The notes: a model not told the origin generated them from the sequence alone. A stretch of DNA of 64,000 nt from Frankiaceae bacterium (GCA_947479995.1 CANKBT010000001.1:25313-89312), one strand, 5' to 3'. Counted from the first letter of the stretch, positions 1 to 24,488 are shown. Numbers and translations are program-made.

Positions 1-281
1 TCAGCGTGGTGCTGCAGGACGGCAGTGCCGGCTCCTACTTCTCGGGCTTCGCCGCGCTCGCGCAGTCCGCCGACCTCTACGTCGGCGCCTTCAAGGCAGC
101 GCTGTTCGGACTGCTCGCCGGTGTGGTGGCCTCGTACAAGGGGCTCACGGCCAAAGGCGGCGCGCAGGGCGTGGGCGACGCGGTCAACGCCAGCGTCGTG
201 CTCACGTTCCTGCTGCTGTTCGCCGTGAACTTCCTCGTCACGGTCGTGTACGTCGAGCTCGTCCCGCCGCGGGGCGGCTGA
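1..281 (+). CDS. MlaE/YrbE-family ABC permease, C-terminal end (5' part lies outside the window)
   Basis: The frame of ORF 6..281 is open to the window edge. It has a hydrophobic C-terminus (VVLTFLLLFAVNFLVTVVYVEL). It sits 1 nt before a second YrbE-like permease and six Mce genes, which is the canonical order. Confidence 0.75.
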   Translation, partial: SVVLQDGSAGSYFSGFAALAQSADLYVGAFKAALFGLLAGVVASYKGLTAKGGAQGVGDAVNASVVLTFLLLFAVNFLVTVVYVELVPPRGG

Positions 282-282
282 C

Positions 283-6868: not shown

Positions 6869-8280
6869 TCACCGGCGCCACCCGGCTCCGGCTGGCGGCG
6901 TTCCTCGGGCTCGCGGCGCTCGGGACGACCGTCGTGGGCGGTCAGTACGTCGGGCTGGACCGCATGCTGTGGAGCCAGCCGTACACGGTCACGCTGCAGA
7001 TGCCGTCCTCCGGGGGCATCTTCGAGAACGCCGAGGTCACCTACCGCGGCCTCGCCGTCGGACGCGTCCGCGAGCTGCGCCTGACCGACGACGGGATGGC
7101 GGTCGACCTGGCCATCGAGCGGGGGGAGCGCGTGCCGGCCGACGTGCGCGCCGTCGTGGCCAACCGGTCGGCGATCGGCGAGCAGTTCGTCGACCTCCAG
7201 CCCGCGGCCGACGGTCCGCCGTGGCTGGCGGGCGGCGACGTCATCCCGGCCGACCGCACGGCGGTGCCGCCGCGGCTGGAGGACGTGCTGCTGCAGGTGC
7301 AGGAGCTCACCGAGTCGGTCGACCGGCCCGCGCTCCAGACGCTGGTCCGCGAGCTCGGCGACGGCTTCGCCGGCACGGGGCCGGAGCTCGAGACGCTCCT
7401 GGACCGGGGCGACAGCCTGCTCACCACCCTTCTCGAGGCGCTGCCGGCCACCCGCACCCTGCTCACTGACGGGCAGACCGTCCTGACCACGCAGCGGGAC
7501 ACCTCCGACGAGCTGCTCAGCTGGAGCCGCGACCTGCAGGACCTCACCGGCACGCTCCAGGGCTCCGACACCCAGCTGCGCACGCTGCTCGACGAGGCCC
7601 AGCGCACGCTGCCGGAGGTCGAGGAGCTCGTCCTCGCCAACGACCAGCAGCTGCCGCTGCTCATGCAGGACCTCGTGACGGTCGGCGACATCGTCCGCGC
7701 CCGCCTGCCGGGCATCCGCGTCTTCCTCGTCGCCTTCCCCCGGCTGATCCAGGGGACCTTCAACGTCGTGCAGGGCGACGGCTTCGTGCACTTCAACCTG
7801 GTGCTGGACTACTCCTCCGGCGTCTGCACCTCCGACGGGTATGCCGGCACCTCGAAGGCGCCGCAGGCCAAGCCGGTGCCCGAGCTCGGCAACCCGAGTC
7901 GGCGCGCCAACCTCAACGCCTACTGCGCCGAGGAGCCGGACAGCATCACCGCGGCGCGCGGGTCGCAGAACGTCCCGAAGCTGCCCGGCGACACCTACGA
8001 CGCCGCGACGCAGAAGGTCGACAACCCGCGCTTGGGCCGGCGCGGCCCAGACGACGTCCCGCCCGTCTCGTACGAGACCGACGAGCCGCCGGCCGCGCCG
8101 CCGTCGCCGACGGTCCAGCCGGCCGCGTACGACGCGCGGACGGGGGTGGTCAGCACCGCCGAGGGCCCGATCGCCGTCGTGGGCTCCGACGGCGGCCAGG
8201 CGGCGCAGTTCGGCGCCGAGGCCTGGAAGTGGCTGATCGTGGGGCCGGTGCTGTCCGGCACGAACCCGGGGTCACGATGA
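6865..8280 (+). CDS. mceF: Mce-family protein F
   Basis: TM helix plus MCE domain (YTVTLQMPSSGGIFENAEVTYRGLAVGRVRELRL). It has a Pro-rich C-terminal tail. Confidence 0.85.
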   Translation: MITGATRLRLAAFLGLAALGTTVVGGQYVGLDRMLWSQPYTVTLQMPSSGGIFENAEVTYRGLAVGRVRELRLTDDGMAVDLAIERGERVPADVRAVVANRSAIGEQFVDLQPAADGPPWLAGGDVIPADRTAVPPRLEDVLLQVQELTESVDRPALQTLVRELGDGFAGTGPELETLLDRGDSLLTTLLEALPATRTLLTDGQTVLTTQRDTSDELLSWSRDLQDLTGTLQGSDTQLRTLLDEAQRTLPEVEELVLANDQQLPLLMQDLVTVGDIVRARLPGIRVFLVAFPRLIQGTFNVVQGDGFVHFNLVLDYSSGVCTSDGYAGTSKAPQAKPVPELGNPSRRANLNAYCAEEPDSITAARGSQNVPKLPGDTYDAATQKVDNPRLGRRGPDDVPPVSYETDEPPAAPPSPTVQPAAYDARTGVVSTAEGPIAVVGSDGGQAAQFGAEAWKWLIVGPVLSGTNPGSR

Positions 8281-9465: not shown

Positions 9466-10236
9466 GTGACTCAGCCGACCGATCTGCTCACGATCGACCA
9501 GCTGGCGCTGCAGTCCGGGATGACCGTGCGCACGTTGCGCTCGCACGCCTCGCGCGGCTTGCTGCAGCCGCCCATCATCCGGGGCCGGACCGGGTACTAC
9601 GGTCCGGCGCACCTGGCCCGGCTCGGGTTCATCCGCGACATGCAGGACGCCGGCTTCAGCCTCGCCAGCATCGAGCAGATCCTGGCCGGAGTGCCGGCGG
9701 ACGCCGGCGAGGCCGCGCTCAGCGTCATCCGCGGCCTGCTCGCCCCCTGGCGCAGCGAGCCGCCGGTGGTGTACGAGATCGAGGAGCTGCTCGGGCTGTT
9801 CGGGCCGCAGGCCGGGCCGGAGCACCTGGACGCGCTGATCGAGATGGGCGGTGCGGAGCTCACGCCGGACGGCCAGGTCCGGGTGGTGAGCCCCGGACTG
9901 CTCGCCGCCGGTGCCGAGGGCGCTCAAGCCGGCCTGCCCCTGGAGGGGATCCTGGAAGCCGGGCGGCTGGTCGCGACGTCGGCCCAGGAGGTGGCCGAGA
10001 GCTTCGTGGCGCTGTTCCGCGACAGCGTCTGGAAGGACTTCATCGACGCCGGCACGCCGGAGCAGGAGTGGGTGCGGATCACCGGCGTCCACGCGCGGCT
10101 CCAGCCGCTGGCGGTGCAGGCGTTCCTCAGCGCCTTCCAGCGCGCGATGAGCACGTCGGTGAGCTCGGCGCTCGGGCAGGAGCTCGGCGGGCAGGCCCAG
10201 GAGGCGCTCGACCGCCTGCTCGGCAAGACGGGCTGA
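9466..10236 (+). CDS. MerR-family transcriptional regulator
   Basis: N-terminal MerR HTH (LTIDQLALQSGMTVRTLRSHASRGLLQPP...GYYGPAHLARLGFIRDMQDAGFSLASI). Confidence 0.8.
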   Translation: MTQPTDLLTIDQLALQSGMTVRTLRSHASRGLLQPPIIRGRTGYYGPAHLARLGFIRDMQDAGFSLASIEQILAGVPADAGEAALSVIRGLLAPWRSEPPVVYEIEELLGLFGPQAGPEHLDALIEMGGAELTPDGQVRVVSPGLLAAGAEGAQAGLPLEGILEAGRLVATSAQEVAESFVALFRDSVWKDFIDAGTPEQEWVRITGVHARLQPLAVQAFLSAFQRAMSTSVSSALGQELGGQAQEALDRLLGKTG

Positions 10237-10255: not shown

Positions 10256-11917
10256 TCAGCCGGGCACCCTGGCCCGCGCGGAGCGCTGACCGCCCAGGGC
10301 CGCCAGCTCGGTGGCCTCGGTCACCTTGACCCGGGGCCGCCCCGAGGCCTGACCGCGGCTGCGCTCGACCGCGTCGATGCGCCGCCAGCCGTCGACGTCG
10401 GTGGCGTGCGGGCAGCGCTCGCGCACCAGCCGGTCGAACTCCGTCGCGGTTCTCGCGGGGTGCCCCACACGTCCGGCGTTGACGTCGTCGAGCAGCCGGT
10501 TGACGGTGTCGCGCGCGCAGCTCTTGTTGGTCCCGATGAACCCGGTGGGCCCGCGCTTGATCCAGCCGACGACGTACGTGCGGTCCCGGCCGAGCACGCG
10601 CCCGTCGTCGTTGGGGACGACGCCGCGGACGTCGTCGAAGGGCAGGTCGGGGACCGGAACCCCCCGGTACCCGATCGACCGCAGGACCAGGCCGGTCGGC
10701 AGCTCCTCGGTCGCGCCGGTCGGCACGGCCACCGGCCTGCCGTCGGCTCCGGCCGTCAGCTCGTTCTGCGCCAGGACCGCCGCTGTCACGCGGTCGGCGC
10801 CCAGCAGGGCCACCGGCGAGGTGAGGAAGCGCAGGACGATCCGCCGCCGCGCGCCCCGCGGCTGCTCGGCGGGAGGCAACGCCCGCACCGCTTCGACCTT
10901 CTGGGCCACCGCGTCGTCCGGCCCGGTGTAGGGCGCGGGAGGGGGACCGTGCCGGACGACCTCCAGGTCCGGGCGGGACAGCAGGCCGAGCAGCTCGGGC
11001 AGCGTGAAAGCGGCCTCCGCAGGGCTCCGTCGAGCCAGGACCACGACCTCGCGAACCTGACTGGCGCGCAGCGCCTGCAGCGCGACGTCGCTGATGTCCG
11101 TGGCGGCCAGTCGGTCCGGGTCGGTGGCGAGGATGCGGGCCACGTCGAGTGCGACGTTGCCGTTGCCGACCACCACGGCGCGCTCGGAGGTCAGGTCGTA
11201 GCTGTGGTCGGCGTGGTCGGGGTGGCCGTTGTACCAGGCGACGAAGCGTGTCGCGGTGTCGCTGCCGGTCAGGTCCTCGCCCGCGATGCCCAGCCGACGG
11301 TCGTGCGCGGCCCCGGTCGCGTAGACGACGGCCGAGTGACAGGACAGCAGCTCGTCGTGCGTGACGTCGCGGCCGACGTCGACGCCGAGCAGGTAGCGGA
11401 ACCCTGGGCGGTTCTCGATCTGCCAGAACAGCGAGGTGATCTTCTTGGTGTCGGGGTGGTCGGGGGCGACGCCGGAGCGCACCAGGCCGTACGGCGTCGG
11501 CAGCCGCTCCAGCACCGTCACCTCGACACCGCGCTGCTTGAGCAGCTCGTCCGCGGCGTAGAGCGCGGCCGGGCCCGACCCGACGACCGCGACCCGAAGC
11601 GGGAGCCGCTCGGGGTCGAGCCGGACGAGCCGGGGGACCGGCGCCTGCGCCGGCCGGCGCTCGGGGTAGCCGCTGTAGCGGGCGTTGACGTCCACGAAGG
11701 GGAGCTGCTCCGGGCGCAGCTTGCCGGCCGGGACGATCGCTCCGACGGGGCAGGCGTCGACGCACGCCCCGCAGTCCACGCACGCCACCGGGTCGATGTA
11801 GAGCATCTCGGCCGTGGCGAAAGCGGGGTCGTGCGGGTTGGGGTGGATCGCGTTGACCGGGCACGCGAACACGCAGGAGGCGTCGCTGCAGCAGGACTGC
11901 GTGATGACGTGCGGCAT
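10256..11917 (-). CDS. Ferredoxin-fused NADPH:ferredoxin oxidoreductase (FprB-like)
   Basis: The N-terminus has two Fe-S Cys clusters (CVFACPVNAI; CVDCGACVDACPVGAI). This is followed by an FprA-type flavoprotein (VAVVGSGPAALYAADEL; VVVGNGNVALDVARIL). Confidence 0.85.
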   Translation of the reverse strand: MPHVITQSCCSDASCVFACPVNAIHPNPHDPAFATAEMLYIDPVACVDCGACVDACPVGAIVPAGKLRPEQLPFVDVNARYSGYPERRPAQAPVPRLVRLDPERLPLRVAVVGSGPAALYAADELLKQRGVEVTVLERLPTPYGLVRSGVAPDHPDTKKITSLFWQIENRPGFRYLLGVDVGRDVTHDELLSCHSAVVYATGAAHDRRLGIAGEDLTGSDTATRFVAWYNGHPDHADHSYDLTSERAVVVGNGNVALDVARILATDPDRLAATDISDVALQALRASQVREVVVLARRSPAEAAFTLPELLGLLSRPDLEVVRHGPPPAPYTGPDDAVAQKVEAVRALPPAEQPRGARRRIVLRFLTSPVALLGADRVTAAVLAQNELTAGADGRPVAVPTGATEELPTGLVLRSIGYRGVPVPDLPFDDVRGVVPNDDGRVLGRDRTYVVGWIKRGPTGFIGTNKSCARDTVNRLLDDVNAGRVGHPARTATEFDRLVRERCPHATDVDGWRRIDAVERSRGQASGRPRVKVTEATELAALGGQRSARARVPG

Positions 11918-11921
11918 GCGG

Positions 11922-12983
11922 TCAGGCCGCGCTGAGGAAGGCCGGCGGCGGCTCGCTGCGGTACCGGCTGGCCGGCCCGTCGATCTTGCACTTGCGCCAC
12001 AGCTTGCGCGAGGCGCGGGTCATCAGGTTCGACTGCTCGGCGAGCATGCGGACGTCCCCGAACAGGTTCTGCAGCCGCTCCTGCGACTGCGGGGAGTCCC
12101 AGAACAGGTCGTTCTTGACCTCCTCCGGGATGTCGAACCGCTCCCAGAACTCGCGCGGCGGCACCATGATGGCGTCGCAGAGGTAGCGCATCAGCAGCGG
12201 GAGCACGAGAGCCGTCAGGTGGCGGCTGATCGGCTTGAGGTGCGGCGCGCGCAGCTTGACGGCTTCGTGCGCGAAGGAGATGTGCCGCGCCTCCTCGGCG
12301 ATGTGGATCGCCATGACGCGCGCCAGGACCGGCGGCAGGTTCTCGGCTGCCCGCAGGATCTCCTTCTGCGTGTGGTCGATCGGTTCCTCCCCGGCGAGGA
12401 TCCCCAGGAAGAAGATCACCGGGACGCTGTTGACGAGCATCGGGAGCACGGGGGCCAGGGCCCGCAGCGCCCGCGGCATGCCGGGCACGTCGGCCCCGAT
12501 ACGGTTCACCGCCTCCTGGAACATCTGGGTGTGGTGGCACTCCTCCGTCGCCTCGTGCGACAGGTAGCGGTACTCGGGCGAGCCGTTGGGCAGCGCGAAG
12601 ACGTACTGCATGATCGCGCGGATCAGGACGTTCTCGAACTGCAGCCCCACCTTCAGGACGTTGGCCTGCCGCCAGAGGCCGATCTCGATCTGCCGCTCCA
12701 GCGGCAGCGCCTGGTACCAGGGGTGGGCCCCGATGGGATCGGCGTGGGCCGGCAGGACCCACCGCGGGTCGTCCTTGCGCACCTGGAAGTCCGGGTCGTC
12801 CCACGGCACGTCGACGAACGCGTCGAAGTGCCGGGCGACCGAGGCCTCGGAGAGCTGGCGCAGCACCTGCTCGTACTCCGCACGCGTGCGGATGACGACG
12901 CGCTGTGCGGTCGGCGGCTCCGCGGCGCGCTCTGCGCGGGCACGGGAGGTCGCGGGGGAGGGGGCGGTCGCGAGGGGGGACAT
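11922..12983 (-). CDS. AurF-like ferritin-fold diiron oxygenase
   Basis: Two E..H diiron motifs (SHEATEECHHTQMF; HIAEEARHISFAHE). The start was chosen at ATG 12983 behind GGAGGA. The ORF-track start at 13079 lies in a lower-GC promoter region. The stop is 4 nt from the fprB-like start. Confidence 0.7.
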   Translation of the reverse strand: MSPLATAPSPATSRARAERAAEPPTAQRVVIRTRAEYEQVLRQLSEASVARHFDAFVDVPWDDPDFQVRKDDPRWVLPAHADPIGAHPWYQALPLERQIEIGLWRQANVLKVGLQFENVLIRAIMQYVFALPNGSPEYRYLSHEATEECHHTQMFQEAVNRIGADVPGMPRALRALAPVLPMLVNSVPVIFFLGILAGEEPIDHTQKEILRAAENLPPVLARVMAIHIAEEARHISFAHEAVKLRAPHLKPISRHLTALVLPLLMRYLCDAIMVPPREFWERFDIPEEVKNDLFWDSPQSQERLQNLFGDVRMLAEQSNLMTRASRKLWRKCKIDGPASRYRSEPPPAFLSAA

Positions 12984-13035
12984 CGGTCCTCCAGAGGGGT
13001 GGTCGCTCACGGGGGTCGAGAGAGTGTCTGTCTTT

Positions 13036-13085
13036 GATACGCCGAAAACCGTGACGTCAAACTCTGTCACGTCGAACATGTCTCG
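13036..13085. promoter_or_regulatory. Phased pentamer operator, copy 1 (GATAC-N10-GTGAC-N10-GTCAC-N10-tctcg)
   Basis: The core 20-bp palindrome GTGAC-N10-GTCAC lies at 13051-13070, 55-100 nt upstream of the AurF-like start. It shares its architecture with the sites at 15557 and 19132. Confidence 0.55.
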
Positions 13086-13095
13086 TCCAGTCCGG

Positions 13096-13920
13096 TCAGC
13101 GGTGCCGACGCACGTAGCGCATCTCCAGCCGCCCGACCGCGCTGCTCAGGCCCGGGGCTAGGCGGATGGCCCGCCAGGCGACCCGGGCGCTGCGCGGCGC
13201 GACGACGAGCGCCTTGTTCCGGTCCATCCCGCGCAGGATGTCGACGGCCAGCAGGTCGGCGTCGTAGAGGTGCCGCTGCGCCTTGGTGGCCAGGTCGCGC
13301 CCGCGCTCGGCGAGGGCCGGCTTGGGCAGGTCCTCGGGACCGGCCTTGTCGAGGATGGGTGTGTCGGTGAAGCCGGGGCAGACCGCGGTGACGCGGATCC
13401 CGTGGCTGGCCGCCTCGGGGCGCAGCGCCAGGGACAGCCCCACGACGGCATGCTTGGTCATCACGTAGGGCGTCAGCAGCGCTGCCGGGACCAGGCCGGC
13501 CAGCGAGGCGGTGTTGACGATGTGCCCGCTGCGCTGACGGACCATGACGGGGAACGCGGCGTGGACGCCGTGGACGACGCCGCGCAGGTTGACGTCGATG
13601 GCGCGGTCCCAGTGCGCGAGGGACAGCTCTGCCATCTCCCCGCCGACGCCGATCCCGGCGTTGTTGACCATGACGTCGAGCCGGCCCTCGGCCTGCACCA
13701 CGCGGTCCACGAGGTCCTGCACGGCGGTGGCGTCGCGGACGTCGAGGGGCGCGGCCCAGGCGCGTCCCGGCCCGGTCTCGTTGAGCTGCTTGGCGTGCAG
13801 CTCGGCGCCCTCGGCGTCGATGTCGGCGACCACGATGGTGTCGCCCCGGGCGACCATCGCGCGGGACAGGGCGGCACCGATGCCCGAGGCCCCCCCGGTG
13901 ATGATGGCAGTGCTGGTCAT
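13096..13920 (-). CDS. Short-chain dehydrogenase/reductase (SDR)
   Basis: TGGASGIGAA cofactor motif, NNAG, and catalytic YVMTKHAV (YxxxK). Confidence 0.85.
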   Translation of the reverse strand: MTSTAIITGGASGIGAALSRAMVARGDTIVVADIDAEGAELHAKQLNETGPGRAWAAPLDVRDATAVQDLVDRVVQAEGRLDVMVNNAGIGVGGEMAELSLAHWDRAIDVNLRGVVHGVHAAFPVMVRQRSGHIVNTASLAGLVPAALLTPYVMTKHAVVGLSLALRPEAASHGIRVTAVCPGFTDTPILDKAGPEDLPKPALAERGRDLATKAQRHLYDADLLAVDILRGMDRNKALVVAPRSARVAWRAIRLAPGLSSAVGRLEMRYVRRHR

Positions 13921-13970
13921 GGCAGTCCTTCAGGAGGCGGGCAGGGGCCCGGCGGGAGGAGGGGAGGCGG

Positions 13971-15497
13971 TCAGGCAGCGACCGGCACCGGCGCGGTGCG
14001 GGCCTCGTAGCGGGACAGGTCGATGCGCCGGGTGCGCCAGCGCAGCTCGAAGCTGAAGCCGGGCCACAGGGTCGTGTTGCGGCCGTTCTCGTCGAGGTAC
14101 CAGGAACCGCAGCCGCCGGAGGTCCACACCGTGCCCTCCATGCGCTCCTGGACCTCGTCGTTGAAGGCGTCCTGCGCGTCCTGGCGCACGTCGAGGCTGA
14201 TCACCCCGCGCTCGTCCATCGCGCGCAGTGCGTCGAGCACGTACGCGACCTGCGACTCGACGAAGAAGATGACCGAGGTGTGGCCGGGCCCGGTGTTCGG
14301 GCCGACCAGCAGGAACAGGTTCGGGAAGCCGGCCACGCTCGTGCCGAGGTAGGCCTGCGGGCTTCCCTTCCACCGCTCGGCGAGCGTCTCGCCGTGTCGG
14401 CCGCGGACGCGGTCGGCGATGGCGATGTCCGTGACGTGGAACCCCGTCCCGAAGATGATCGTGTCGACCTCGCGCTGCCGCCCGTCGGCGGTCGTGACCC
14501 CCTTCGGGGTGATGGCGGTGATGCGGTCGGTGACGACCTCGACGTTGGGCTGACTCACGGCCGGGTAGAACCCGTTGGCGATGAGGATGCGCTTGCAGCC
14601 CAGCTTGTAGTCCGGCGTGAGCTTGGCCCGCAGGACAGGGTCCTTCACCGTCCAGCGCAGGTGCGCCCGAGCCAGCTTCTCCACGCCCTTCATCAGCTCG
14701 GGCTTGTGCACCAGGCCTGGCAGCATGGCCTCCTGACGCCAGTACACGCCGGCGCGGACGGCCTTCTGCAAAGCCGGGACCGCGGCGTACAGGCGCTGCT
14801 GCGCGGCGGGGATCCGCCGGTCCGGTCGGGGCAGGATCCACGGCGGCGTCCGCTGGAACAGGTGCACCTGGGCGGCGGCGCGCTGCACGTGCGGGACGAA
14901 CTGCACCGCGGAGGCGCCGGTGCCCACGACGGCGACGCGGTCGCCGGTGAGGTCGTGGTCGTGGTCCCAGGTGGCGCTGTGGAAGGTAGTGCCCTCGAAG
15001 GTCTCGATCCCGGGGATGCTGGGGTAGGCAGGGTCGCTCAGGGGGCCGGCTGCGGACACGAGCACGCGAGCGCGCACGGTGCCCCTGGGCGTCTGCACCT
15101 GCCACTCCTGGTCGGCCTCGACCCAGTGGGCCTGCGTGACCTCCGCGGAGAAGACGATGTGCGGCAGGAGGCCGAACTCCTGGGCGGTGCGCCGCAAGTA
15201 GGCATGGATCTCGGCCTGCGGCGAGAAGGCGCGCGACCAGTAGGGGTTGAGCGCGAAGGAGAAGGAGTACAGGTTCGACGGGACGTCGCAGGCGCAGCCC
15301 GGGTAGCTGTTGTCGCGCCAGGTGCCGCCGAGGTCGGCGGCGCGCTCGAGCACGACGAAGTCGTGCTCGCCGGACTGCTTGAGCCGGACGGCCATGGCCA
15401 GGCCGGCGAAGCCGCTGCCGATGATGGCGACGCGGACACCTGCCGGCGGCGTCGACGCGGACGGCAGGGACACCTCGGACATAGTGGGTGCGGACAC
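13971..15497 (-). CDS. Baeyer-Villiger / flavin-containing monooxygenase
   Basis: FAD motif IIGSGFAGLA, BVMO fingerprint FEGTTFHSATWD (FxGxxxHxxxW), and NADP motif VVGTGASAVQ. The start was chosen at GTG 15497, which follows GAGGGAG plus 5 nt. ATG 15482 is the alternative. Confidence 0.8.
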   Translation of the reverse strand: MSAPTMSEVSLPSASTPPAGVRVAIIGSGFAGLAMAVRLKQSGEHDFVVLERAADLGGTWRDNSYPGCACDVPSNLYSFSFALNPYWSRAFSPQAEIHAYLRRTAQEFGLLPHIVFSAEVTQAHWVEADQEWQVQTPRGTVRARVLVSAAGPLSDPAYPSIPGIETFEGTTFHSATWDHDHDLTGDRVAVVGTGASAVQFVPHVQRAAAQVHLFQRTPPWILPRPDRRIPAAQQRLYAAVPALQKAVRAGVYWRQEAMLPGLVHKPELMKGVEKLARAHLRWTVKDPVLRAKLTPDYKLGCKRILIANGFYPAVSQPNVEVVTDRITAITPKGVTTADGRQREVDTIIFGTGFHVTDIAIADRVRGRHGETLAERWKGSPQAYLGTSVAGFPNLFLLVGPNTGPGHTSVIFFVESQVAYVLDALRAMDERGVISLDVRQDAQDAFNDEVQERMEGTVWTSGGCGSWYLDENGRNTTLWPGFSFELRWRTRRIDLSRYEARTAPVPVAA

Positions 15498-15556
15498 GTG
15501 GGCTCCCTCGTCGGACGTCGGCTGGCTCGTGGCAGAGGCATCTCTCCGCCCAAGTC

Positions 15557-15606
15557 GTGACATCTCCAATCGTAACGTCATTCAGCGTCACGCACAAGGG
15601 CGTCAT
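15557..15606. promoter_or_regulatory. Phased pentamer operator, copy 2 (GTGAC-N10-GTAAC-N10-GTCAC-N10-GTCAT)
   Basis: The core lies at 15572-15591, 60-110 nt upstream of the BVMO start, and overlaps the stop of the small upstream ORF. Confidence 0.55.
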
Positions 15607-16057
15607 CGTCCACCTCGTGGTCGGCCGCCTGCGCGCGCCGGGCCAGCGCGCCGCGCACACGCGCCAGCCGGGCGGCGCCCGGCAGCGCGACCAGCTCCTG
15701 CGCGACGAGGTCCACACGGGACAGCAGCGACTCCAGACCGGCGCGGACCACCGTGACGTCGTGCTGCGTCTGCGCCAGGCCGGCCAGCACCGGCAGGACG
15801 TCGTCCGACAGGCGGGGGAGCACCTCGGGCAGGGTCGCGTCCACCTGGGCCAGGACCCGTCGGGACGTCGCGAGGACGTCCTCGGCCTCGTCCAGCAGGC
15901 GATGGCACCGGGCCGGCAACTGCACGGTGAGCGTCACGGCGGCTGCCGCGGCGGCCGCCGTGCCGGCCGCCCCGGTGAGGGTGCCGCGCACGGCCGCGAG
16001 AGCACCGGTCAGCACGGCTGCCGGGCCGCCCGCCGCTGGCGGGGCGGCGGCCGTCAC
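15578..16057 (-). CDS. Hypothetical Ala/Leu-rich helical protein coupled to the MMPL gene
   Basis: The GTG at 16057 overlaps the MMPL stop (GTGA). This is the in-frame tail of track ORF 15578..19156 and reads as ordinary protein (LLDEAEDVLATSRRVLAQVDATLPEVLPRLSDDVLPVLAGL). No family was recognised. Confidence 0.45.
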   Translation of the reverse strand: MTAAAPPAAGGPAAVLTGALAAVRGTLTGAAGTAAAAAAAVTLTVQLPARCHRLLDEAEDVLATSRRVLAQVDATLPEVLPRLSDDVLPVLAGLAQTQHDVTVVRAGLESLLSRVDLVAQELVALPGAARLARVRGALARRAQAADHEVDDDALVRDAE

Positions 16058-19000
16058 GACGGTCCGCCGAGCACGACGGCCACCTGTCGCCGCAGGGCCG
16101 CGACGCGGCCGGGCAGCTCGCTGATCCGGCGCCAGGGGTCGGTGCCGCTGGGCCACCAGTTGTACCGGCCGAGCAGGGCCGCCAGCGCCGGGACGAGCAG
16201 GGTGCGGACCAGGAAGGTGTCCAGCAGCAGCCCGGCCGCGATGGCGAACCCGTTCTGAGCCAGGGCGTCGATCCCGGTGAACAGCATGGCCACGAAGCTG
16301 CCGGCGAAGATGACGCCGGCGGCCGTGATGACGCCGCCGGTGCTCGCCACCGCCCGGGCGATGCCGGCGCGGTCCGCGGACGGCGCCTCCTCCCGGATGC
16401 GGGACACCAGCAGGATGTTGTAGTCGACGCCCACCGCGACCAGCAGCACGAACGACAGGACCGGCACCGTCCAGTCGACGGTCTGCCCCAGCAGCCCCTG
16501 CCACACCGCGACCGTCAGCCCGAGCGCCGCGACGTAGTTGAGGAGAACGGTGGCCAGCAGGTACACCGGCGCCACCAGGCTGCGCAGCAGCAGGACGAGC
16601 GTCAGGAACACCACGGACAGGACCGACACCAGCATGAGCGCCAGGTCGCCGGCCGAGAGCTCGCGCAGGTCGCGCGTGGCGGCGGCCGGGCCGGTCGCGA
16701 GGATCTGGGTGGTCGCCAACGGCGTGCCGTGCAGCGCGTTGCGAGCCGCGGCCTGCGCGGCGTCCAGCCGGGCCTCCGCCGCGGCCTCGCCGGCCGGTTC
16801 CCCGTAGACGAGCAGGCGAGCGGTGCGGCCGTCGGGCGACAGGTAGAAGTCCCTGGCCAGCGCGAAGCTCGCGTCCTGGAAGGCGGCCGGGGGCAGGTAG
16901 AACGCCGAGACCCCGGCCGTCGTGGCCTGCTGCGAGGTCTGGGTCAGGGCGTCCGCGGCCTGTCCCAGGCCGGACTCCAGCTCCTGCGTCGCGCCGGTCA
17001 GCGCGTCGACGCCGCCGGCAAGCTGACCCGCTCCGCCGGACAGCGCCTCGGCGCCGGACACCAGCTCGTCCAGGCGGGCCGCGAACTGCTGCGCGCCCGT
17101 GGACGCCTGACCGATGCCGGCCTCGAGCTGGCCGATCCCCCCGTCGAGCCGGGCCAGGCCGCCCCGGAGCTCGGTCGCGCCCTCGGCCAGCCGGCTCGCG
17201 CCGTCCCCCGCCGTCTGCAGGCCCGGCAGGAGCTGGTCCCGCTGGCCGACGTAGATCTGCTCCAGCCCGTCGCGGGCCTCGCGGCAGACCGGGTCCACGG
17301 AGCACCAGCGGGTCGTTGCGCAGGGCCTCGGAGATCCGGCCGAGCCCGTCGACGGCCGGTGCCACCTGCTCCCGTGCGGCCCGCAGTCCCGCGTCCAGCT
17401 CGGCCAGCCCGTCGGCGAGCTGGCCGCTGCCCTGCAGTGCCGCCCGGGACCCGGCGCGCAGCTGGGCGACCCCGCCGCCGGCCTCGGCGATGCCGCTGGC
17501 CAGCCGGTCCGCCGCCCGGTCGCCCTCGACCGTGCCCGCGACCAGCTCGCGCAGCCCCTGGGCGAGCTGGTCGGCGCCGCTCTGCAGCCGGTCGGCGTCG
17601 TCGGAGCCTCCCGCCAGCTGCTGCTCGGCCTGGCGCAGGCGGTCCCCGACCAGCCCGACCTGGGCGGGCAGCTGGGCCTGGTCGATGGGCTCGCCCTGCG
17701 GCCGCGTGACGCCGCGGACGGAGGCGACGCCGGGGACGCGGGCCACCGCCTCGGTCGCGGCCTCGAGGGCGACGAGGCCTTCGGCGGTGCGCAGGTCCTG
17801 GTCGGCGGCCAGCACGACGTAGTCGGCGCGCAGCTCGTCGGACGGGAAGTGCCGGCCCAGCGCCCGCTCGCCGGCGGCGCTGTCCGATGCAGCCGGCTGG
17901 AGGGCGCGGACGTCGTAGGCGCGATCGATCGCCGGCAGCCCGGCCGACAGCGCCAGCAGCAGCAGGAGCCCCACGCCGAGGACCGCGGCCGGGCGCCGGA
18001 CGACCGCGCCGCCGACGGCCGACCACCACCGGGAGGGCCCGGCCGCCAGCGACCGAGGTGCCGCCCGCAGCCCGGCCAGGGCGGTCAGCGCCGGGGTGAG
18101 CGTGAGGCTCACCGCGAGCGTCACCAGCACCGACACGGCCAGCGACGGCCCTGTGGTGCGGAACAGCGCCAGCTCGGTGAACGCCATGCACGCCGTGCCG
18201 ACCGCCACGGTCGCAGCCGAGGCCAGCAGGACGGTCCCGACCTTGGCCGCGGCGACCCGCGTCGCCACGAGGGCCGGGTCGCCCGCGCGCAGCCGCTCGT
18301 GGTACCGGGCGATGAGGAAGATGCCGTAGTCGGTCCCCGCCCCCAGGACCAGGGCGGTGAGGAAGGCGGCGGTGTACGTCGAGACCGGCAGCCCGTGGCC
18401 GCCGAGGAAGGCGACCGCTCCCCGTGCCGCCAGGAGGGCCACGGCGATGCTGCCGAGCGGGATGAGCACGGTGACGACCCGGCGGTAGATCAGTGCCAGC
18501 AGGCCCACGATGATCAGGACGCTGAGCACCGTGACGAAGGCGACCTCCGCATCGAGCTCCTCGTTGATGTCCACGAGGGTGGCCGGGTCGCCCGTCACCG
18601 CCGTCTGGACGCCGGGCGGGTGCGCGCCGGCATGCTCGCGCAGGAAGGCGATGTCCTCGGCCGCCTCCGGGCTGCCGAGCGGGTGGCGGATCGCGACCGG
18701 CAGGTAGGCGGCCTGGCGGTCGGGGCTGACGAGCGCCTGCTCGAGACTGGGTTGGGAGACCGGGTCCTGCACGTCCGCCACGTGTTCGGCGCCGGCGCGC
18801 AGCCGGTTCGCCAGCTGCCCGAGCCAGGCGACGTCGGCTGGCTCCAGCGGGCGGTCCCGCTCGACGACGACGAAGGCGACGGACGCCGCCTCACCGCTGC
18901 CGAACGCCTCGTCCATCACCTTGAAGCCGCGGGCCGCCGGTGTGTCCGCCGGCACGAAGGCCGTGGCGTCGCGGGCCACGACGGTCTCCAGCTGCGGGAC

Positions 19001-19141
19001 GGCGAGGTTCAGGATGCCCGCCACGGCCAGCCAGGCGAGCACCGTCAGCCAGGGCCGGCGGGTGCTCAGGCGCCCCAGCCAGCCGAACGCACGCTCGCCT
19101 CGGTCGCTCGACGCCACGCTCACCCCCGACAGTGACGCCAT
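16054..19141 (-). pseudogene. MMPL/RND-family transporter with a central X-X-X-Leu-X-X-Gly heptad-repeat insert; interrupted by one frameshift near 17305
   Basis: The N-terminal half is in the frame of ORF 15578..19156 (RRPWLTVLAWL; GTDYGIFLIARYHERL) up to ...RISEALRNDPL. The C-terminal half is in the frame of ORF 16054..17298 (CSVDPVCREARDGLEQ...; VGVDYNILLVSRIREE). The total length is 3n+1. The start (ATG 19141, TTG 19156 or GTG 19117) is uncertain. Confidence 0.8.
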
Positions 19142-19181
19142 CGCGTGTGACGCCAACCGGCGTCACGGTAACAGGCGTCGT
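19132..19181. promoter_or_regulatory. Phased pentamer operator, copy 3 (GTGAC-N10-GTGAC-N10-GTCAC-N10-GTCGT)
   Basis: The core is GTGACGCCAACCGGCGTCAC at 19147-19166 (perfect 8-bp arms). It overlaps the 5' end of the MMPL gene. Confidence 0.55.
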
Positions 19182-19223
19182 GCAGGCTGTGCGCTCCCCC
19201 GAGGTGAGGTCGGCGGCTCGAGG

Positions 19224-19637
19224 TCAGCCGGCCAGCGCCCGGACCTCGGCCCGGTGCGCCAGCCCGGCAAGGAAGAGGTCCGCGGCGGGACGCAGCCGGG
19301 GCTCGAGGTCGTCGGGGCAGGACAGCTGCAGGCGCAGGCGCGTCCCCGACCGTCCCTGAGGCGACACGCGGAGCACGGCGCTGCCCGGGGTCGCCCCGGG
19401 CAGCGCCGTCCAGCGCGCCACCGCCTCGTAGGAGGTGCGCAGCCGGCGCGGCGGTCCGACGGGCAGCAGCGCCGAGCCGCCGTCGAGGCCGGCTGCCCCG
19501 GGCCACAGGTCGAGGACGTCGGAGCAGGCCAGGAGCAGGGCGACGGAGGCCGGAGCGGCCTGCACGTGCCGCTCCGCGCTCACGACGACCTCCGGCCGGC
19601 GGGCGACGCGCGCAGGACCGCTGGTCGGCCGGCTCAC
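19224..19637 (-). CDS. Hypothetical protein, possibly SRPBCC/START-like
   Basis: The GTG at 19637 overlaps the plsC-like stop (GTGA). The N-terminus VVVSAERHVQAAPASVALLLACSDVLDLWPG resembles SRPBCC openings. The family call is weak. Confidence 0.4.
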   Translation of the reverse strand: MSRPTSGPARVARRPEVVVSAERHVQAAPASVALLLACSDVLDLWPGAAGLDGGSALLPVGPPRRLRTSYEAVARWTALPGATPGSAVLRVSPQGRSGTRLRLQLSCPDDLEPRLRPAADLFLAGLAHRAEVRALAG

Positions 19638-22561: not shown

Positions 22562-24328
22562 TCAACCGCTGACGGGCGCGGACGCCGGCTCGGCGGCGCG
22601 GTCGGGGGCCTGCTGGGCGAGCCGGTCGCGCAGCTCGCGCTTGAGCACCTTCCCGGCGGCGGACACCGGGATGCTGTCGACGAACTCCATGCGGCGCACC
22701 CGCTTGTAGGGGGTCACGCGCTCGCCGACGTGCGCCATGAGCTCCTCGGCGGTGGCCTGCGCACCGGGCGCCAGCACCACGAAGGCGACGGGCAGCTCGC
22801 CGACGGCCGGGTCGGGCTGGCCGACCACGGCGCAGCTGGACACCGCCGGATGGGCGAACAGGATCTCCTCGAGCTCGCGCGGGTACACGTTGTAGCCCTT
22901 GTAGAGCAGCATGTCCTTCTTGCGGTCGACGATCGACAGGTAGCCGTCCTGGTCCAGGACGCCGACGTCGCCCGTGCGCAGCCAGCCGTCGACGAGCACC
23001 TCCGCGGTGGCGTCGGGCCGGCCGTGGTAGCCGCGCATCACCTGCGGGCCGCGCAGGCACACCTCGCCCGGCTCCCCGGCGGGCAGCTCGCGCAGCGCGG
23101 CCTCGTCGGGCGCCACGACCATCACCTCGGTGTCGGGGACGGGCAGGCCGACGCTGCCGACCTTGCGGACCTGGGAGCGACCGGACGGGTTGCTGACCGC
23201 GCCCATCGTCACCTCGGTCAGCCCGTAGCCCTCACCGACGACGGCGTCCGGGAACACCTGCGCCAGCTGCTCGATGAGCTCGACGGCCAGCGGCGCCGCC
23301 CCGGACGCGAGCGAGCGGACGCTGTCCAGGTCGCGCCCGCGCAACCCCGGGACCTGCAGCAGGGCGTGGAAGACGGGCGGGGCGCCGCCGATGGTCGTGA
23401 CGCGGTAGCGCTCGGCGTCGGCGACGTACGCGACCGGGTCGAACCGCTGGTGGATCACCGTCGTGGAGCCGGTCAGCACGGGGAGGTTCAGGTACCCGAC
23501 CGTGCCCATCGCGTGGAACCACGGGGTCAGGTTGACGGCGATGCCGGTGCCCAGGCGCACCGGGAAGTCGTCGGCCAGCTCCTCGAGCTGGCGCAGCGTG
23601 AGGTCGCCCTCGTCGTCCAGCGCCGGGACCGAGCCGGTGCCCCAGCAGGCGAACTGCAGGGTGTTGACCACGACGTTGCGGTGCGGCAGCTCGACGCCCT
23701 TCGAGCGCCCGGTGGTTCCGCCGGTGTAGGCCAGGTGGGCCAGGCGCTCGGCGGGGCCGACCTCGACCCGCGGGTCGTCGGCGGACGCCTGGGAGGTGGC
23801 CGCGAGCAGGTCCTCCCACCCGCCCGGCAGGCCCGACAGGTCGACCCGCGCGGCGGCGTCGGCCTCCTGCGCGGCGTCGGTCACCAGCACGGTCCGGACC
23901 GCGGTGCGCTCGAGCACGGAGGCGAGCAGCGGCGCCACCGGGCCGTAGGTGACGACGGCGGCCGCCGAGCAGTCGGCGAGCTGGTGCGCCAGGTCGTCCG
24001 GCGGGAGCAGCGGGTTGGTGGGCGAGAAGGTCGCGCCGGCCATCAGCACCCCGTAGTAGACCGCCGGGTACTGCAGGCAGTTGGGCAGGTGCACAGCCAC
24101 CACGTCGCCAGGAGCGATCCCCCGTGCGGCGAGCGCGTTGGCGGTGCGGCAGGCGTCGGCCAGCACCTCGGCGAAGGTCAGGCTGCGCCCGCCCTGGACG
24201 AAGGCCGTCCGCTCGCCGTAGCGCCGGGCCGCGGCACGCAGGACGGACGGCACAGGAACAGCCGGGTAGTCCAGCGAGCGTGGGATGCCTGCGGGCCAGG
24301 CGGTGGACGTTGCGGACGACGACGGCAT
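22562..24328 (-). CDS. Acyl-CoA synthetase (AMP-forming)
   Basis: AMP-binding motifs YTGGTTGRSKG, GYGLTE and TGDVGVLDQDGYLSIVDRKKDML. The start is ATG 24328 (MPSSSATSTAWPAGIPRSLDYP). Confidence 0.85.
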   Translation of the reverse strand: MPSSSATSTAWPAGIPRSLDYPAVPVPSVLRAAARRYGERTAFVQGGRSLTFAEVLADACRTANALAARGIAPGDVVAVHLPNCLQYPAVYYGVLMAGATFSPTNPLLPPDDLAHQLADCSAAAVVTYGPVAPLLASVLERTAVRTVLVTDAAQEADAAARVDLSGLPGGWEDLLAATSQASADDPRVEVGPAERLAHLAYTGGTTGRSKGVELPHRNVVVNTLQFACWGTGSVPALDDEGDLTLRQLEELADDFPVRLGTGIAVNLTPWFHAMGTVGYLNLPVLTGSTTVIHQRFDPVAYVADAERYRVTTIGGAPPVFHALLQVPGLRGRDLDSVRSLASGAAPLAVELIEQLAQVFPDAVVGEGYGLTEVTMGAVSNPSGRSQVRKVGSVGLPVPDTEVMVVAPDEAALRELPAGEPGEVCLRGPQVMRGYHGRPDATAEVLVDGWLRTGDVGVLDQDGYLSIVDRKKDMLLYKGYNVYPRELEEILFAHPAVSSCAVVGQPDPAVGELPVAFVVLAPGAQATAEELMAHVGERVTPYKRVRRMEFVDSIPVSAAGKVLKRELRDRLAQQAPDRAAEPASAPVSG

Positions 24329-24488
24329 GACGGCTCCGGTGGTGAGGCAGGTCGCGACCCAACCACGGCCGCCGCCCGACGCGCAACGAACATGCCGTCT
24401 TGACTGTTTGTACGGCACGGGGCAGGCTGCGCGGACGTCCCGGCCCCCGCTGGGCAGCCCGCCATGTCCATCTGTTCGAGGGGATCCC

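What the first reader, a model, noticed from the sequence alone, without database searches (positions are those of the whole stretch)
13036..19181. Recurrent 50-bp operator architecture (four GTGAC-type pentamers on a strict 15-bp period) in front of three neighbouring operons
Three non-coding or 5' regions align without gaps. Site 1 at 13036 is GATAC-gccgaaaacc-GTGAC-gtcaaactct-GTCAC-gtcgaacatg-tctcg. Site 2 at 15557 is GTGAC-atctccaatc-GTAAC-gtcattcagc-GTCAC-gcacaagggc-GTCAT. Site 3 at 19132 is GTGAC-gccatcgcgt-GTGAC-gccaaccggc-GTCAC-ggtaacaggc-GTCGT. Each has a central 20-bp palindrome GTGAC-N10-GTCAC (extended half-site GTGACGYC). Each is flanked by one further half-site exactly 15 bp out on each side, in a direct-direct-inverted-inverted arrangement. 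An exact GTGAC-N10-GTCAC is expected well under once by chance in 64 kb of this composition (rough estimate from assumed base frequencies, not a formal statistic). Here two exact copies and one 9/10 copy all lie in the only sizeable lower-GC upstream regions of three consecutive minus-strand units: the AurF-like/FprB pair, the BVMO/SDR pair and the MMPL/small-ORF pair. I do not recognise this as a described regulator motif. The 15-bp phasing suggests a dimer-of-dimers or a cooperative array.
Basis: seen in the sequence. Interest (0 to 1): 0.6.

Follow-up and report, generated by a model that had tools for sequence, protein, structure and literature searches.

The report
Conserved 15-bp-phased promoter-operator array
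Three promoter regions in a lipid-uptake and lipid-oxidation gene cluster share a control sequence of GTGAC-like elements spaced 15 bp apart, which is conserved in related bacteria and is probably the binding site of a neighbouring, uncharacterised MerR-type regulator.

Summary
Exact GTGAC-N10-GTCAC occurs 3 times against 0.16 expected. Three-pentamer arrays peak sharply at a 15-bp period.

A 46-nt matrix built only from related organisms ranks these three sites first in the whole window (48, 28 and 24 bits; next unrelated hit 3.4). A second matrix (window sites included) hit only promoter regions of aurF-fprB, hydrolase-mce and BVMO-SDR across 2.25 Mb of related loci, and never coding sequence.

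Some details need revising. Three elements are conserved, not four. Each array overlaps a likely sigma-A-type promoter: P1 lies upstream of a TTGAC-like -35, P2 directly after it, and P3 on the -10. The direct/inverted pattern is ambiguous because GTNAC is its own reverse complement apart from the middle base. I found no evidence for an RNA element.

The best candidate binder is the MerR at 9466-10236. It is a paralogue of FtsR/Rv1828. Its C-terminal domain weakly resembles the Rv1264 adenylyl-cyclase regulatory domain, whose structure holds bound oleic acid. It stays linked to aurF-fprB in every relative that has the array, including a 30%-identical lineage. Binding is untested.

Verdict: a real, undescribed operator motif of an ordinary kind. 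Interest is moderate.

The parts
13033..13078 (-). Site 1, a promoter-operator array upstream of aurF-like/fprB-like. On the gene strand it reads P1 GTGAC (13070-13066), TTTGAC -35-like (13061-13056), P2 GTCAC (13055-13051), P3 GTATC (13040-13036) and a weak -10-like TATCAA (13039-13034). P3 lies 52 nt upstream of the ATG at 12983.
   Evidence: It scores 28.4 bits with the relatives-only matrix. The TTGACGTCACG and GGCGTATCA blocks are invariant in L092 (89% AurF identity) and L085 (88%).
15554..15599 (-). Site 2, the array upstream of BVMO/SDR. It reads P1 GTGAC (15591-15587), AATGAC -35-like (15582-15577), P2 GTTAC (15576-15572) and P3 GTCAC (15561-15557). Its distal part overlaps the stop codon of the small ORF (15578-15580). 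P3 lies about 59 nt upstream of the GTG at 15497.
   Evidence: It is the top hit in the window with the relatives-only matrix, at 47.7 bits. The same architecture sits upstream of the BVMO in L090, L094, L095 and L097.
19129..19174 (-). Site 3, the array upstream of MMPL. It reads P1 GTGAC (19166-19162), TTGGC -35-like (19156-19152), P2 GTCAC (19151-19147) and P3 GTCAC (19136-19132). P1-P2 form a perfect 20-bp palindrome, GTGACGCCGGTTGGCGTCAC. P3 lies 14 nt upstream of the GTG at 19117.
   Evidence: It scores 21.8 bits on the gene strand and 24.1 on the other strand with the relatives-only matrix. No orthologous MMPL promoter was available for comparison.
9466..10236 (+). Candidate regulator: a 256-aa MerR-family protein. 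It has an N-terminal MerR winged helix-turn-helix and a C-terminal domain of the Rv1828_C type. It is the last gene on the mce strand and converges on fprB.
   Evidence: Pfam finds the MerR_1 domain. Most homologues at about 35-45% identity carry PF28507, named Rv1828_C. The family profile matches the Rv1264 N-terminal regulatory domain at E = 0.002-0.003, and Foldseek gives TM-scores of 0.37-0.50. The AF2 model has a mean pLDDT of 89.9. Orthologues are linked to aurF-fprB in 11 loci.
10256..12983 (-). Target unit 1: AurF-like diiron oxygenase (11922-12983) and FprB-like ferredoxin/FAD reductase (10256-11917).
   Evidence: The pair is conserved in nearly all of the 170 loci.
13096..15497 (-). 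Target unit 2: flavin (Baeyer-Villiger-type) monooxygenase (13971-15497) and short-chain dehydrogenase (13096-13920).
15578..19117 (-). Target unit 3: an MMPL transporter read in two frames (17300-19117 and 16054-17298), plus a conserved small ORF (15578 to about 15940).

Best explanation
Each site is a promoter with a built-in operator. Three G(T)NAC elements sit exactly 15 bp apart. P1 lies just upstream of a TTGAC-like -35, P2 directly after it, and P3 on the -10. Together they mark the start of three transcription units inside one co-directional cluster: aurF-fprB, BVMO-SDR and MMPL-small ORF. In relatives the same module also heads the hydrolase-mce lipid-uptake operon. That makes it the signature of one regulon for lipid import and oxidation.

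The most likely binder is the linked MerR-family protein at 9466-10236, a paralogue of FtsR/Rv1828. A relative in that family, FtsR, binds a 25-bp inverted repeat. The protein's C-terminal domain resembles the Rv1264 regulatory domain, whose structure holds bound oleic acid.

Inferred mechanism: without ligand the protein covers the region from about -45 to -10 and blocks RNA polymerase. A fatty-acid-like ligand then releases it or remodels the complex, in the usual MerR manner.

Shown: the motif, its specificity, its conservation and the gene linkage. Inferred: the promoter assignment, the identity of the binder, the ligand and the sign of regulation.
For: Statistics.

Cross-validation: a matrix built from nine relatives' sites alone ranks the three window sites first on both strands. 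They score 47.7, 28.4 and 24.1/21.8 bits. The next unrelated hit scores 3.4, and the background is -58.6 +/- 13.1.

Specificity: the full matrix (12 sites, window's three included) gives no hit of 18 bits or more in coding sequence, and none in the Mycobacterium, Rhodococcus, Gordonia or Dietzia loci, across 2.25 Mb.

Conservation: the gapless stack of nine aurF promoters gives the consensus TTg..cGTGACa..atTTgaCG.tACGgTc...g.cGTca, and the flanks diverge. The conserved blocks include spacer positions (CG.TACGGT) and the region upstream of the -35 (TTGTGCGTGACA). I would not expect (my own knowledge) a sigma factor alone to hold these constant.

Promoter geometry: in L097-L099 and L094, P3 lies only 25-26 nt from the start codon, so the core promoter must overlap the array. 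TTTGAC-17 nt-CAAGAT fits in L098 and L099.

Linkage to the MerR:
- Orthologues (55-98% identity) are adjacent to aurF-fprB in the window, L082-084, L090, L091, L093-097 and L100. A homologue (P0130) has a longest contig of 31,950 nt, the length of L087's contig.
- Every MerR-bearing locus with upstream sequence available has the array. No locus without an adjacent MerR and outside this clade has one.
- The MerR sits at the 3' end of an array-headed operon. In L090, L094, L095 and L097 this is BVMO-SDR-MerR. In the window, L082 and L093 it is the last gene on the mce strand. Both arrangements allow autoregulation.
- L001 provides an independent lineage. A 30%-identical full-length homologue (hhalign probability 99.9%, E = 7e-34) is transcribed divergently from aurF, and an exact GTGAC-N10-GTCAC lies in the 110-bp gap.

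Precedent: FtsR binds a 25-bp inverted repeat (PMC6683498). By my count its core half-sites lie about 18 bp apart, centre to centre.

Ligand lead: the C-terminal domain matches Rv1264N by profile (E = 0.002) and by fold. The Rv1264 structure holds bound oleic acid (PMC12505454).
Against: - No binding or expression data exist.
- No canonical sigma-70 promoter is found in 12900-19300 by the strict scan. The -10-like hexamers of the three window sites are weak (TATCAA, CACGAC, CACTGT).
- The geometry is not that of classical MerR promoters. The best promoter assignment has a 17-nt spacer, not 19-20 nt, and the P1-P2 dyad straddles the -35.
- P3 (GTCA) could be no more than an extended -10.
- The co-occurrence of MerR and array is confounded by phylogeny, because nearly all cases belong to one clade.
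- In L086 the P1-P2 module is inverted relative to aurF, and in L087 the mce array scores best on the opposite strand. This fits poorly with a fixed -35 role for TTGAC.
- The Aeromicrobium and Nocardioides genome loci carry a 14-bp-period variant upstream of the -35 with no MerR nearby.
- FtsR's motif (AACCCT...AGGGT) is unrelated in sequence.
- The similarity to Rv1264N is weak.
Confidence: 0.5

Rival explanations
1. The array is a real operator, but a different, unlinked regulator binds it and the MerR is a bystander. One possibility is a winged-helix response regulator of the GlnR/AfsQ1/MtrA type, which recognises GTnAC-like pentamers. Another is a TetR- or IclR-type oligomer that covers about 45 bp.
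For: The GTnAC pentamer is the half-site I recall for AfsQ1 (GTnAC-n6-GTnAC) and for the GlnR a-site; this is from memory and was not checked here. The Aeromicrobium and Nocardioides genome loci have the related 14-bp-period motif with no MerR within 10 kb. TetR genes flank aurF in L082 and L087.
Against: The period is 15 bp (14 bp in the variant). It is not the 11 bp I recall (not checked here) for tandem OmpR-family sites. The intergenic region beside the L087 TetR gene holds a different repeated sequence, GGAATnnnGATTACAA, seen at its own divergent promoter and upstream of mce (my reading of the sequence). The window holds no homologue of the L082 TetR. The window's TetR at 56156 is unrelated to the L087 TetR. 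The MerR linkage holds in two lineages that are only 30% identical.
Confidence: 0.25
2. There is no dedicated repressor or activator. The shared sequence is a common promoter type (-35, extended -10 and an upstream element), perhaps read by an alternative sigma factor, and paralogous or orthologous promoters simply look alike.
For: TTGAC-like and CAnnnT-like hexamers sit at fixed places inside the array with a 17-nt spacer. The G of P3 falls at -14, where an extended -10 would be (my reading). P1 as GTGACA is 5/6 identical to TTGACA.
Against: Conserved positions lie where I would not expect sigma-A contacts: CG.TACGGT in the spacer and TTGTGCGTGAC upstream of the -35. ECF-type geometry does not fit. 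There are only 14 nt between the GAC of P1 and the CGG that follows P2, against the 16-17 nt I recall for ECF promoters. Site 3 is a perfect 20-bp palindrome, which a promoter does not need. The module occurs in both orientations in L086 and L087.
Confidence: 0.15
3. The sites act in the mRNA. The arrangement could form an interrupted hairpin in the intercistronic transcript and control processing, stability or translation.
For: Site 3 can form an 8-bp stem with a tetraloop, extended by an outer helix, on either strand.
Against: No Rfam family matches at E up to 1. On the gene strand the fold z-scores are +2.6 (site 1), -3.5 (site 2, from an unrelated downstream hairpin) and -0.7 (site 3). P2 varies to GATAC or GGTAC in relatives without any compensating change in P1, so pairing is not kept. 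The outer pentamer pairs would be C-A mismatches in the gene-strand RNA.
Confidence: 0.03
4. The resemblance is a coincidence of GC-poor intergenic sequence.
For: One exact palindrome also occurs in coding sequence, at 53332.
Against: See, and the conservation in about 20 related loci.
Confidence: 0.01

Closest known systems
FtsR/Rv1828-type MerR regulators and their 25-bp inverted-repeat site (C. glutamicum ftsZ promoter; PMC6683498)
   Same: The candidate regulator belongs to the same protein family. It has a MerR winged helix-turn-helix plus an Rv1828_C-type C-terminal domain. FtsR binds a long, 25-bp inverted repeat, with core half-sites about 18 bp apart by my count, compared with 15 bp here. 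In M. tuberculosis the FtsR motif lies between the -35 and the -10.
   Different: The motif sequence is unrelated (AACCCT...AGGGT against GTGAC...GTCAC). There are three phased elements here rather than one dyad. The targets are lipid uptake and oxidation genes, not ftsZ. The window protein is a 35-45% identical paralogue, not the FtsR orthologue; homologues at about 40% identity (likely FtsR-type) sit in a different, conserved neighbourhood.
Classical MerR-family promoters (merT, copA, soxS)
   Same: A MerR-family protein is encoded next to its presumed targets. The operator lies inside the core promoter.
   Different: Classical sites are a single dyad centred in an overlong 19-20-bp spacer (my own knowledge, not checked here). 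Here the best assignment gives a 17-nt spacer, the dyad straddles the -35, and a third element sits on the -10. The predicted protein lacks the long canonical dimerisation helix directly after the wing.
CarH/LitR and BldC, MerR-like proteins that bind tandem direct repeats (from memory, not checked here)
   Same: These are precedents for MerR-type DNA-binding domains that occupy three or more repeats over a promoter as oligomers. CarH appeared as a weak structural hit, 5c8d.
   Different: As I recall, the repeat period there is about 11 bp and the effector domains differ (B12-binding in CarH, none in BldC). No sequence relationship exists beyond the DNA-binding domain.
GTnAC direct-repeat sites of actinobacterial OmpR-family regulators (AfsQ1, GlnR a-site; from memory)
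   Same: The pentamer core is the same: GTnAC.
   Different: The period is 11 bp there and 15 bp here. No response-regulator gene is linked.
CRP (Rv3676) site upstream of the M. tuberculosis orthologues Rv0885-Rv0886 (PMC2724278)
   Same: The same aurF-like/fprB gene pair is listed in that computational regulon transfer with a predicted GlxR/CRP-type palindromic TGTGA-type site upstream.
   Different: The CRP motif is TGTGA-N6-TCACA, 16 bp long. It does not match the sites here.

Membership tests
Transcription-factor operator embedded in a promoter (generic) | Non-random and confined to intergenic 5' regions | tested here: met
   Matrix hits fall only in promoter regions across the window and 2.25 Mb of related loci.
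Transcription-factor operator embedded in a promoter (generic) | Conserved in orthologous promoters while the flanks diverge | tested here: met
Transcription-factor operator embedded in a promoter (generic) | A protein binds it and changes transcription | not testable with these tools
   This needs EMSA, footprinting and reporter assays.
Classical MerR-type promoter | Dyad operator centred within a 19-20-bp -35/-10 spacer | tested here: not met
   The best -35/-10 assignment gives a 17-nt spacer, and the P1-P2 dyad straddles the -35. The promoter assignment is itself inferred, and no TSS data exist.
Classical MerR-type promoter | MerR-family regulator encoded nearby | tested here: met
FtsR/Rv1828-type regulator and site | Regulator with a MerR winged helix-turn-helix plus an Rv1828_C domain | tested here: met
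   Most homologues at about 35-45% identity carry PF28507, named Rv1828_C. The family profile aligns to the Rv1828 C-terminal domain structure 5ydc only weakly (E = 0.1) and to Rv1264N at E = 0.002. PF28507 did not appear in the local Pfam scans, even for homologues precomputed as carrying it, so the window protein itself was not scored against it.
FtsR/Rv1828-type regulator and site | A 25-bp inverted repeat of AACCCT...AGGGT type | tested here: not met
   The sequence is unrelated. Only the length of the inverted repeat is comparable.
OmpR-family GTnAC tandem sites (AfsQ1/GlnR-like) | Direct repeats at a period of about 11 bp | tested here: not met
   The period is 15 bp in this clade and 14 bp in the Aeromicrobium variant. 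Period 11 gives no arrays.
CRP/GlxR site | TGTGA-N6-TCACA | tested here: not met
   I read against the motif given and found no match.
Cis-regulatory RNA | Match to a known family, or a stable structure kept by covariation | tested here: not met

The most novel reading that the evidence does not exclude
An FtsR-paralogous MerR protein with an Rv1264N-like lipid-binding domain is the master switch of an mce-centred lipid import and oxidation regulon in Nocardioidaceae-like actinobacteria. It reads DNA in a way not described for the family: three half-sites phased 1.5 helical turns apart that interleave with the -35 and -10 of the promoter. If so, it would be the first dedicated mce regulator of this type, and a new MerR binding geometry.
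Probability: 0.3. Interest if true: 0.6.

Novelty: new member of a known kind. Interest (0 to 1): 0.42.

Why it matters
Mce transporters import lipids and sterols in actinobacteria. The regulators I know of (Mce1R, Mce2R, Mce3R, KstR; from memory, not checked here) were all described in mycobacteria.

This motif defines a compact, testable regulon: hydrolase-mce, aurF-fprB, BVMO-SDR and an MMPL exporter. It also points to a specific uncharacterised regulator with a plausible fatty-acid-sensing domain. That gives a direct route, by EMSA or DAP-seq with and without fatty acids, to learn what the widespread AurF-like/FprB pair does and how lipid uptake is switched on.

The strict 15-bp (1.5-turn) phasing is unusual. 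If one oligomer reads all three elements, it would be informative about the DNA-binding modes of MerR-family proteins.

Tried and rejected
- **RNA element.** Rfam gave no hit at E up to 1, and the fold z-scores were inconsistent.
- **Canonical sigma-70 promoter or terminator scan.** Nothing was found in 12900-19300.
- **ECF-type promoter reading** (P1 as -35, CGGT as -10). Rejected on spacing, which is 14 nt against the 16-17 nt I recall for ECF promoters.
- **TetR as the binder.** The window has no homologue of the L082 TetR. The L087 TetR region holds a different repeated sequence. The window's TetR at 56156, with its adjacent 4HBT gene, is unrelated to the L087 TetR.
- **Fourth site at 53332.** It is an exact palindrome but lies inside AtuA and does not fit the extended matrix.
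- **Other intergenic regions of the window.** These include the divergent promoter at 24330-24488 and the gap before the MerR gene. None scores above 4.1 bits with the full matrix or 3.4 with the relatives-only matrix.
- **Literature search for the motif strings.** It returned 0 papers. The 'mce operon + MerR' and 'AurF + fprB' searches found nothing relevant.
- **Mobile or repeat element.** The three sites share only the phased elements, and they sit at orthologous positions in diverged relatives.

Full report
**What is in the window.**
The window has 73.7% G+C. A GC3 frame plot and Pfam define one long minus-strand gene run. In transcription order it holds:
- acyl-CoA synthetase (22562-24328)
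- acyl-CoA dehydrogenase
- metallo-beta-lactamase-fold protein
- acyltransferase
- an unknown ORF (19224-19637)
- [site 3]
- MMPL (19117-16054)
- a small ORF (about 15940-15578)
- [site 2]
- flavin/BVMO-type monooxygenase (15497-13971)
- SDR (13920-13096)
- [site 1]
- AurF-like diiron oxygenase (12983-11922)
- FprB-like reductase (11917-10256)

On the other strand, an mce operon (1-8280) is followed by two Mce-associated ORFs and a MerR-family gene (9466-10236).

**Is it more than chance?**
- Exact GTGAC-N10-GTCAC occurs 3 times against 0.16 expected; 0 of 100 shuffles reach 3.
- Allowing one mismatch gives 13 matches against 4.4 expected.
- Distances between GTNAC pentamers peak at 15 bp (6 pairs) and 30 bp (4 pairs). 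Other multiples of three, which coding periodicity favours, give 0-3 pairs.
- A three-pentamer score of at least 13/15 is reached at 10 positions for period 15. Every other period from 9 to 24 gives 0-5, and a first-order Markov model gives a mean of 1.2.
- One extra exact palindrome, at 53332, lies inside an AtuA gene. It does not fit the extended motif, so I treat it as unrelated.

**Related sequences.**
The AurF-like protein has thousands of homologues. The closest are from Nocardioides, Aeromicrobium and uncultured Propionibacteriales. I collected 170 loci anchored on this gene from genomes and metagenomes.

The aurF-fprB pair is almost universal in them. The other window genes are syntenic only in the clade with at least 67% AurF identity. 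Within that clade a module recurs in shuffled order: alpha/beta-hydrolase plus mce operon, aurF-fprB, BVMO-SDR, MMPL and the MerR gene.

**Phylogenetic footprint.**
Read on the gene strand and stacked without gaps, nine aurF promoters give this consensus:

TTg..cGTGACa..atTTgaCG.tACGgTc...g.cGTca

The nine loci are the window, L092, L085, L093, L097, L098, L099, L094 and L087.
- P1 (GTGAC) is invariant in eight of the nine (GCAAC in L085).
- P2 is G(T/A/G)(C/T)AC.
- P3 is GTCA(A/T/C) or GTATC.

Window sites 2 and 3 fit the same frame, down to the TTG..c block before P1. In the closest relatives (88-89% AurF identity) the longest invariant blocks of the intergenic region are TTGACGTCACG and GGCGTATCA.

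The same 15-bp array heads two other operons in relatives:
- the divergent hydrolase-mce operon in L087/088, L090 and L094-096 by the matrix, with a pentamer-only triple in L081 and weak hits in L097 and L098;
- the BVMO in L090, L094, L095 and L097, as GTGACgttgttttgtGGTACgttgtctcgcGTCAT.

Across all 2.25 Mb of loci, three-pentamer arrays scoring at least 14/15 number 17 at period 15 and 10 at period 14. Every other period gives 0-6.

The period-14 class is a variant found in Aeromicrobium and Nocardioides genome loci. It reads GTGACA-N8-(AT)GTSACAT-N6-TTGACA and lies upstream of a clear -35/-10 pair and a leaderless start.

**Cross-validation.**
I built a 46-nt matrix from nine relatives' sites only and scanned both strands of the window. 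The three sites came out on top at 47.7 bits (site 2), 28.4 (site 1) and 24.1/21.8 (site 3). The next unrelated position scored 3.4, against a background of -58.6 +/- 13.1.

The full matrix hits only promoter regions of this clade. It never hits coding sequence, and never the Mycobacterium, Rhodococcus, Gordonia or Dietzia loci. Those lineages carry other palindromes upstream of aurF. For M. tuberculosis, a computational regulon transfer lists a predicted CRP/GlxR-type site there (PMC2724278).

**Anatomy and likely promoter.**
Between P1 and P2 there is always a TTGAC-like hexamer: TTTGAC, TTTGGC, TTTAGC, AATGAC or GTTGGC. Seventeen nucleotides after it, starting inside P3, there is a CAnnnT-like hexamer. 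Examples are CAAGAT in L098 and L099, CACGTT on the L094 mce side, and CACTGT in window site 3.

In L094 and L097-L099, P3 lies only 25-26 nt from the start codon and a Shine-Dalgarno sequence follows it. The core promoter must therefore overlap the array. That places P1 at about -44/-40, P2 at -29/-25 and P3 at -14/-10.

This assignment is inference. The strict sigma-70 scan finds nothing in the window region, and the window's own -10-like hexamers are weak.

Conservation extends to positions where I would not expect sigma-A contacts (my own knowledge): CG.TACGGT in the spacer and TTGTGCGTGAC upstream of the -35. This argues for a bound protein.

On orientation, P1 and P3 are consistently inverted relative to each other. 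Their middle bases are G and C in 92% of the 12 sites. P2 is ambiguous.

In window site 1 the three units also read as direct repeats: TTCGACGTGAC, TTTGACGTCAC and TTCGGCGTATC. A three-element, 15-bp-phased array can.

**Who binds it?**
The MerR gene is the only regulator that travels with the module.
- Orthologues (55-98% identity) are adjacent to aurF-fprB in the window, L082-084, L090, L091, L093-097 and L100.
- A homologue (P0130) has a longest contig of 31,950 nt, the length of L087's contig, so it is probably on it.
- The gene always lies at the 3' end of a co-directional unit that an array heads, or is likely to head. This is BVMO-SDR-MerR in L090, L094, L095 and L097, and mce-...-MerR in the window, L082 and L093.
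- In L001 (an Aeromicrobium MAG), a 30%-identical but full-length homologue (hhalign probability 99.9%, E = 7e-34) is transcribed divergently from aurF. An exact GTGAC-N10-GTCAC lies in the 110-bp gap.

The protein family combines a MerR winged helix-turn-helix with an Rv1828_C domain. It is therefore a paralogue of FtsR/Rv1828. Homologues at about 40% identity, likely FtsR-type, sit in a different, conserved neighbourhood.

FtsR binds a 25-bp inverted repeat. In M. tuberculosis that repeat lies between the -35 and the -10 (PMC6683498). This is a precedent for a long inverted-repeat site in this family.

The AF2 model (pLDDT 89.9) lacks the long canonical MerR coiled coil and ends in two helices of 36 and 40 residues. 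The C-terminal region matches the N-terminal regulatory domain of adenylyl cyclase Rv1264 by profile (E = 0.002-0.003) and by fold (TM 0.37-0.50). The Rv1264 structure holds tightly bound oleic acid (PMC12505454). The similarity is weak, so this is a lead and not a result.

TetR genes next to aurF in L082 and L087 are poor candidates. The window has no homologue of the L082 TetR, and the L087 TetR region holds a different repeated sequence.

**Alternatives.**
- An RNA element is not supported.
- A pure promoter or alternative-sigma reading explains the TTGAC and CAnnnT hexamers. It does not explain the conserved spacer and upstream blocks, the perfect palindrome of site 3, or the inverted copies in L086 and L087.
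- An unlinked regulator remains possible. The period-14 variant occurs without a nearby MerR.

**Verdict.**
This is a real, conserved and previously undescribed promoter-operator module. It marks a small mce-linked lipid regulon. It is most likely read by the neighbouring FtsR-like MerR paralogue, but no binding evidence exists.

It is a new member of a familiar kind (a transcription-factor operator), with an unusual 1.5-turn phasing. Interest is moderate.

Noticed in passing
window 17290-17320 (minus strand): The MMPL gene is read in two frames (17300-19117, then 16054-17298). Compared with L085, the window has 10 nt where L085 has 9, between the conserved codons ...GACCCGCTG and GACCCGGTCTGC.... 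This is a +1 frameshift, so the gene is either a pseudogene or carries an assembly error.
   Followed up: partly
window 53332-53381: A perfect 20-bp palindrome, GTGACCGTCTCGACGGTCAC, lies inside an AtuA-family gene. A further GTGAC follows 45 bp downstream. It matches the pentamer pattern but not the extended motif, and is probably coincidental.
   Followed up: partly
window 24393-24417: The divergent promoter region between the acyl-CoA synthetase run and the ACAD-thiolase operon holds a different inverted repeat, TGCCGT-N13-ACGGCA. It is likely the operator of another regulator.
   Followed up: no
window 15517-15545: A stable hairpin (GGGCGGAGAG...CCUCUGCC on the gene strand) lies in the BVMO 5' leader, downstream of site 2. 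It accounts for the z-score of -3.5 for that region.
   Followed up: no
L002, L003, L006-L008, L013, L014, about 60-30 nt upstream of aurF: The Aeromicrobium genome loci carry a 14-bp-period variant of the motif. In addition, a perfect palindrome, CATACC-N3-GGTATG, lies inside the -35/-10 spacer. This suggests a second regulator.
   Followed up: no
L004, L010, L012 (Dietzia/Rhodococcus), upstream of aurF: A co-directional TetR-like gene ends just upstream. A 12-bp-arm palindrome, GTACAAAGAGAC-N7-GTCACTCTGTAC, lies downstream of a TTGACA-N17-TAGCCT promoter. This lineage appears to use a different local repressor for the same gene pair.
   Followed up: no
L033, L035, L040-L064 (Mycobacterium), about 150 nt upstream of aurF: A conserved sequence, (A/G)TGACCAC(C/T)GGTCAGG(T/C)CAC, contains a TGACC-N3-GGTCA palindrome. 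It is another lineage-specific site.
   Followed up: no
L087 8640-8700 and 15700-15760: The sequence GGAATnnnGATTACAA occurs both in the TetR/MMPL divergent region and upstream of hydrolase-mce. It is the probable operator of the L087 TetR. The mce promoter there would then carry two different operators.
   Followed up: partly
L086 328-347: In this 81%-identical relative the P1-TTTGAC-P2 module is nearly identical to window site 1, but it is inverted relative to aurF. This is not explained by the promoter model.
   Followed up: partly
L087 9950-9985: A strong inverted repeat (aagtttgaggccg...cggcctcaaactt) lies between the array and the aurF ribosome-binding site.
   Followed up: no
L026 13818-13850: GGGACtaaagTCCC resembles a DosR/DevR box as I recall that motif. 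It is unrelated to this finding.
   Followed up: no
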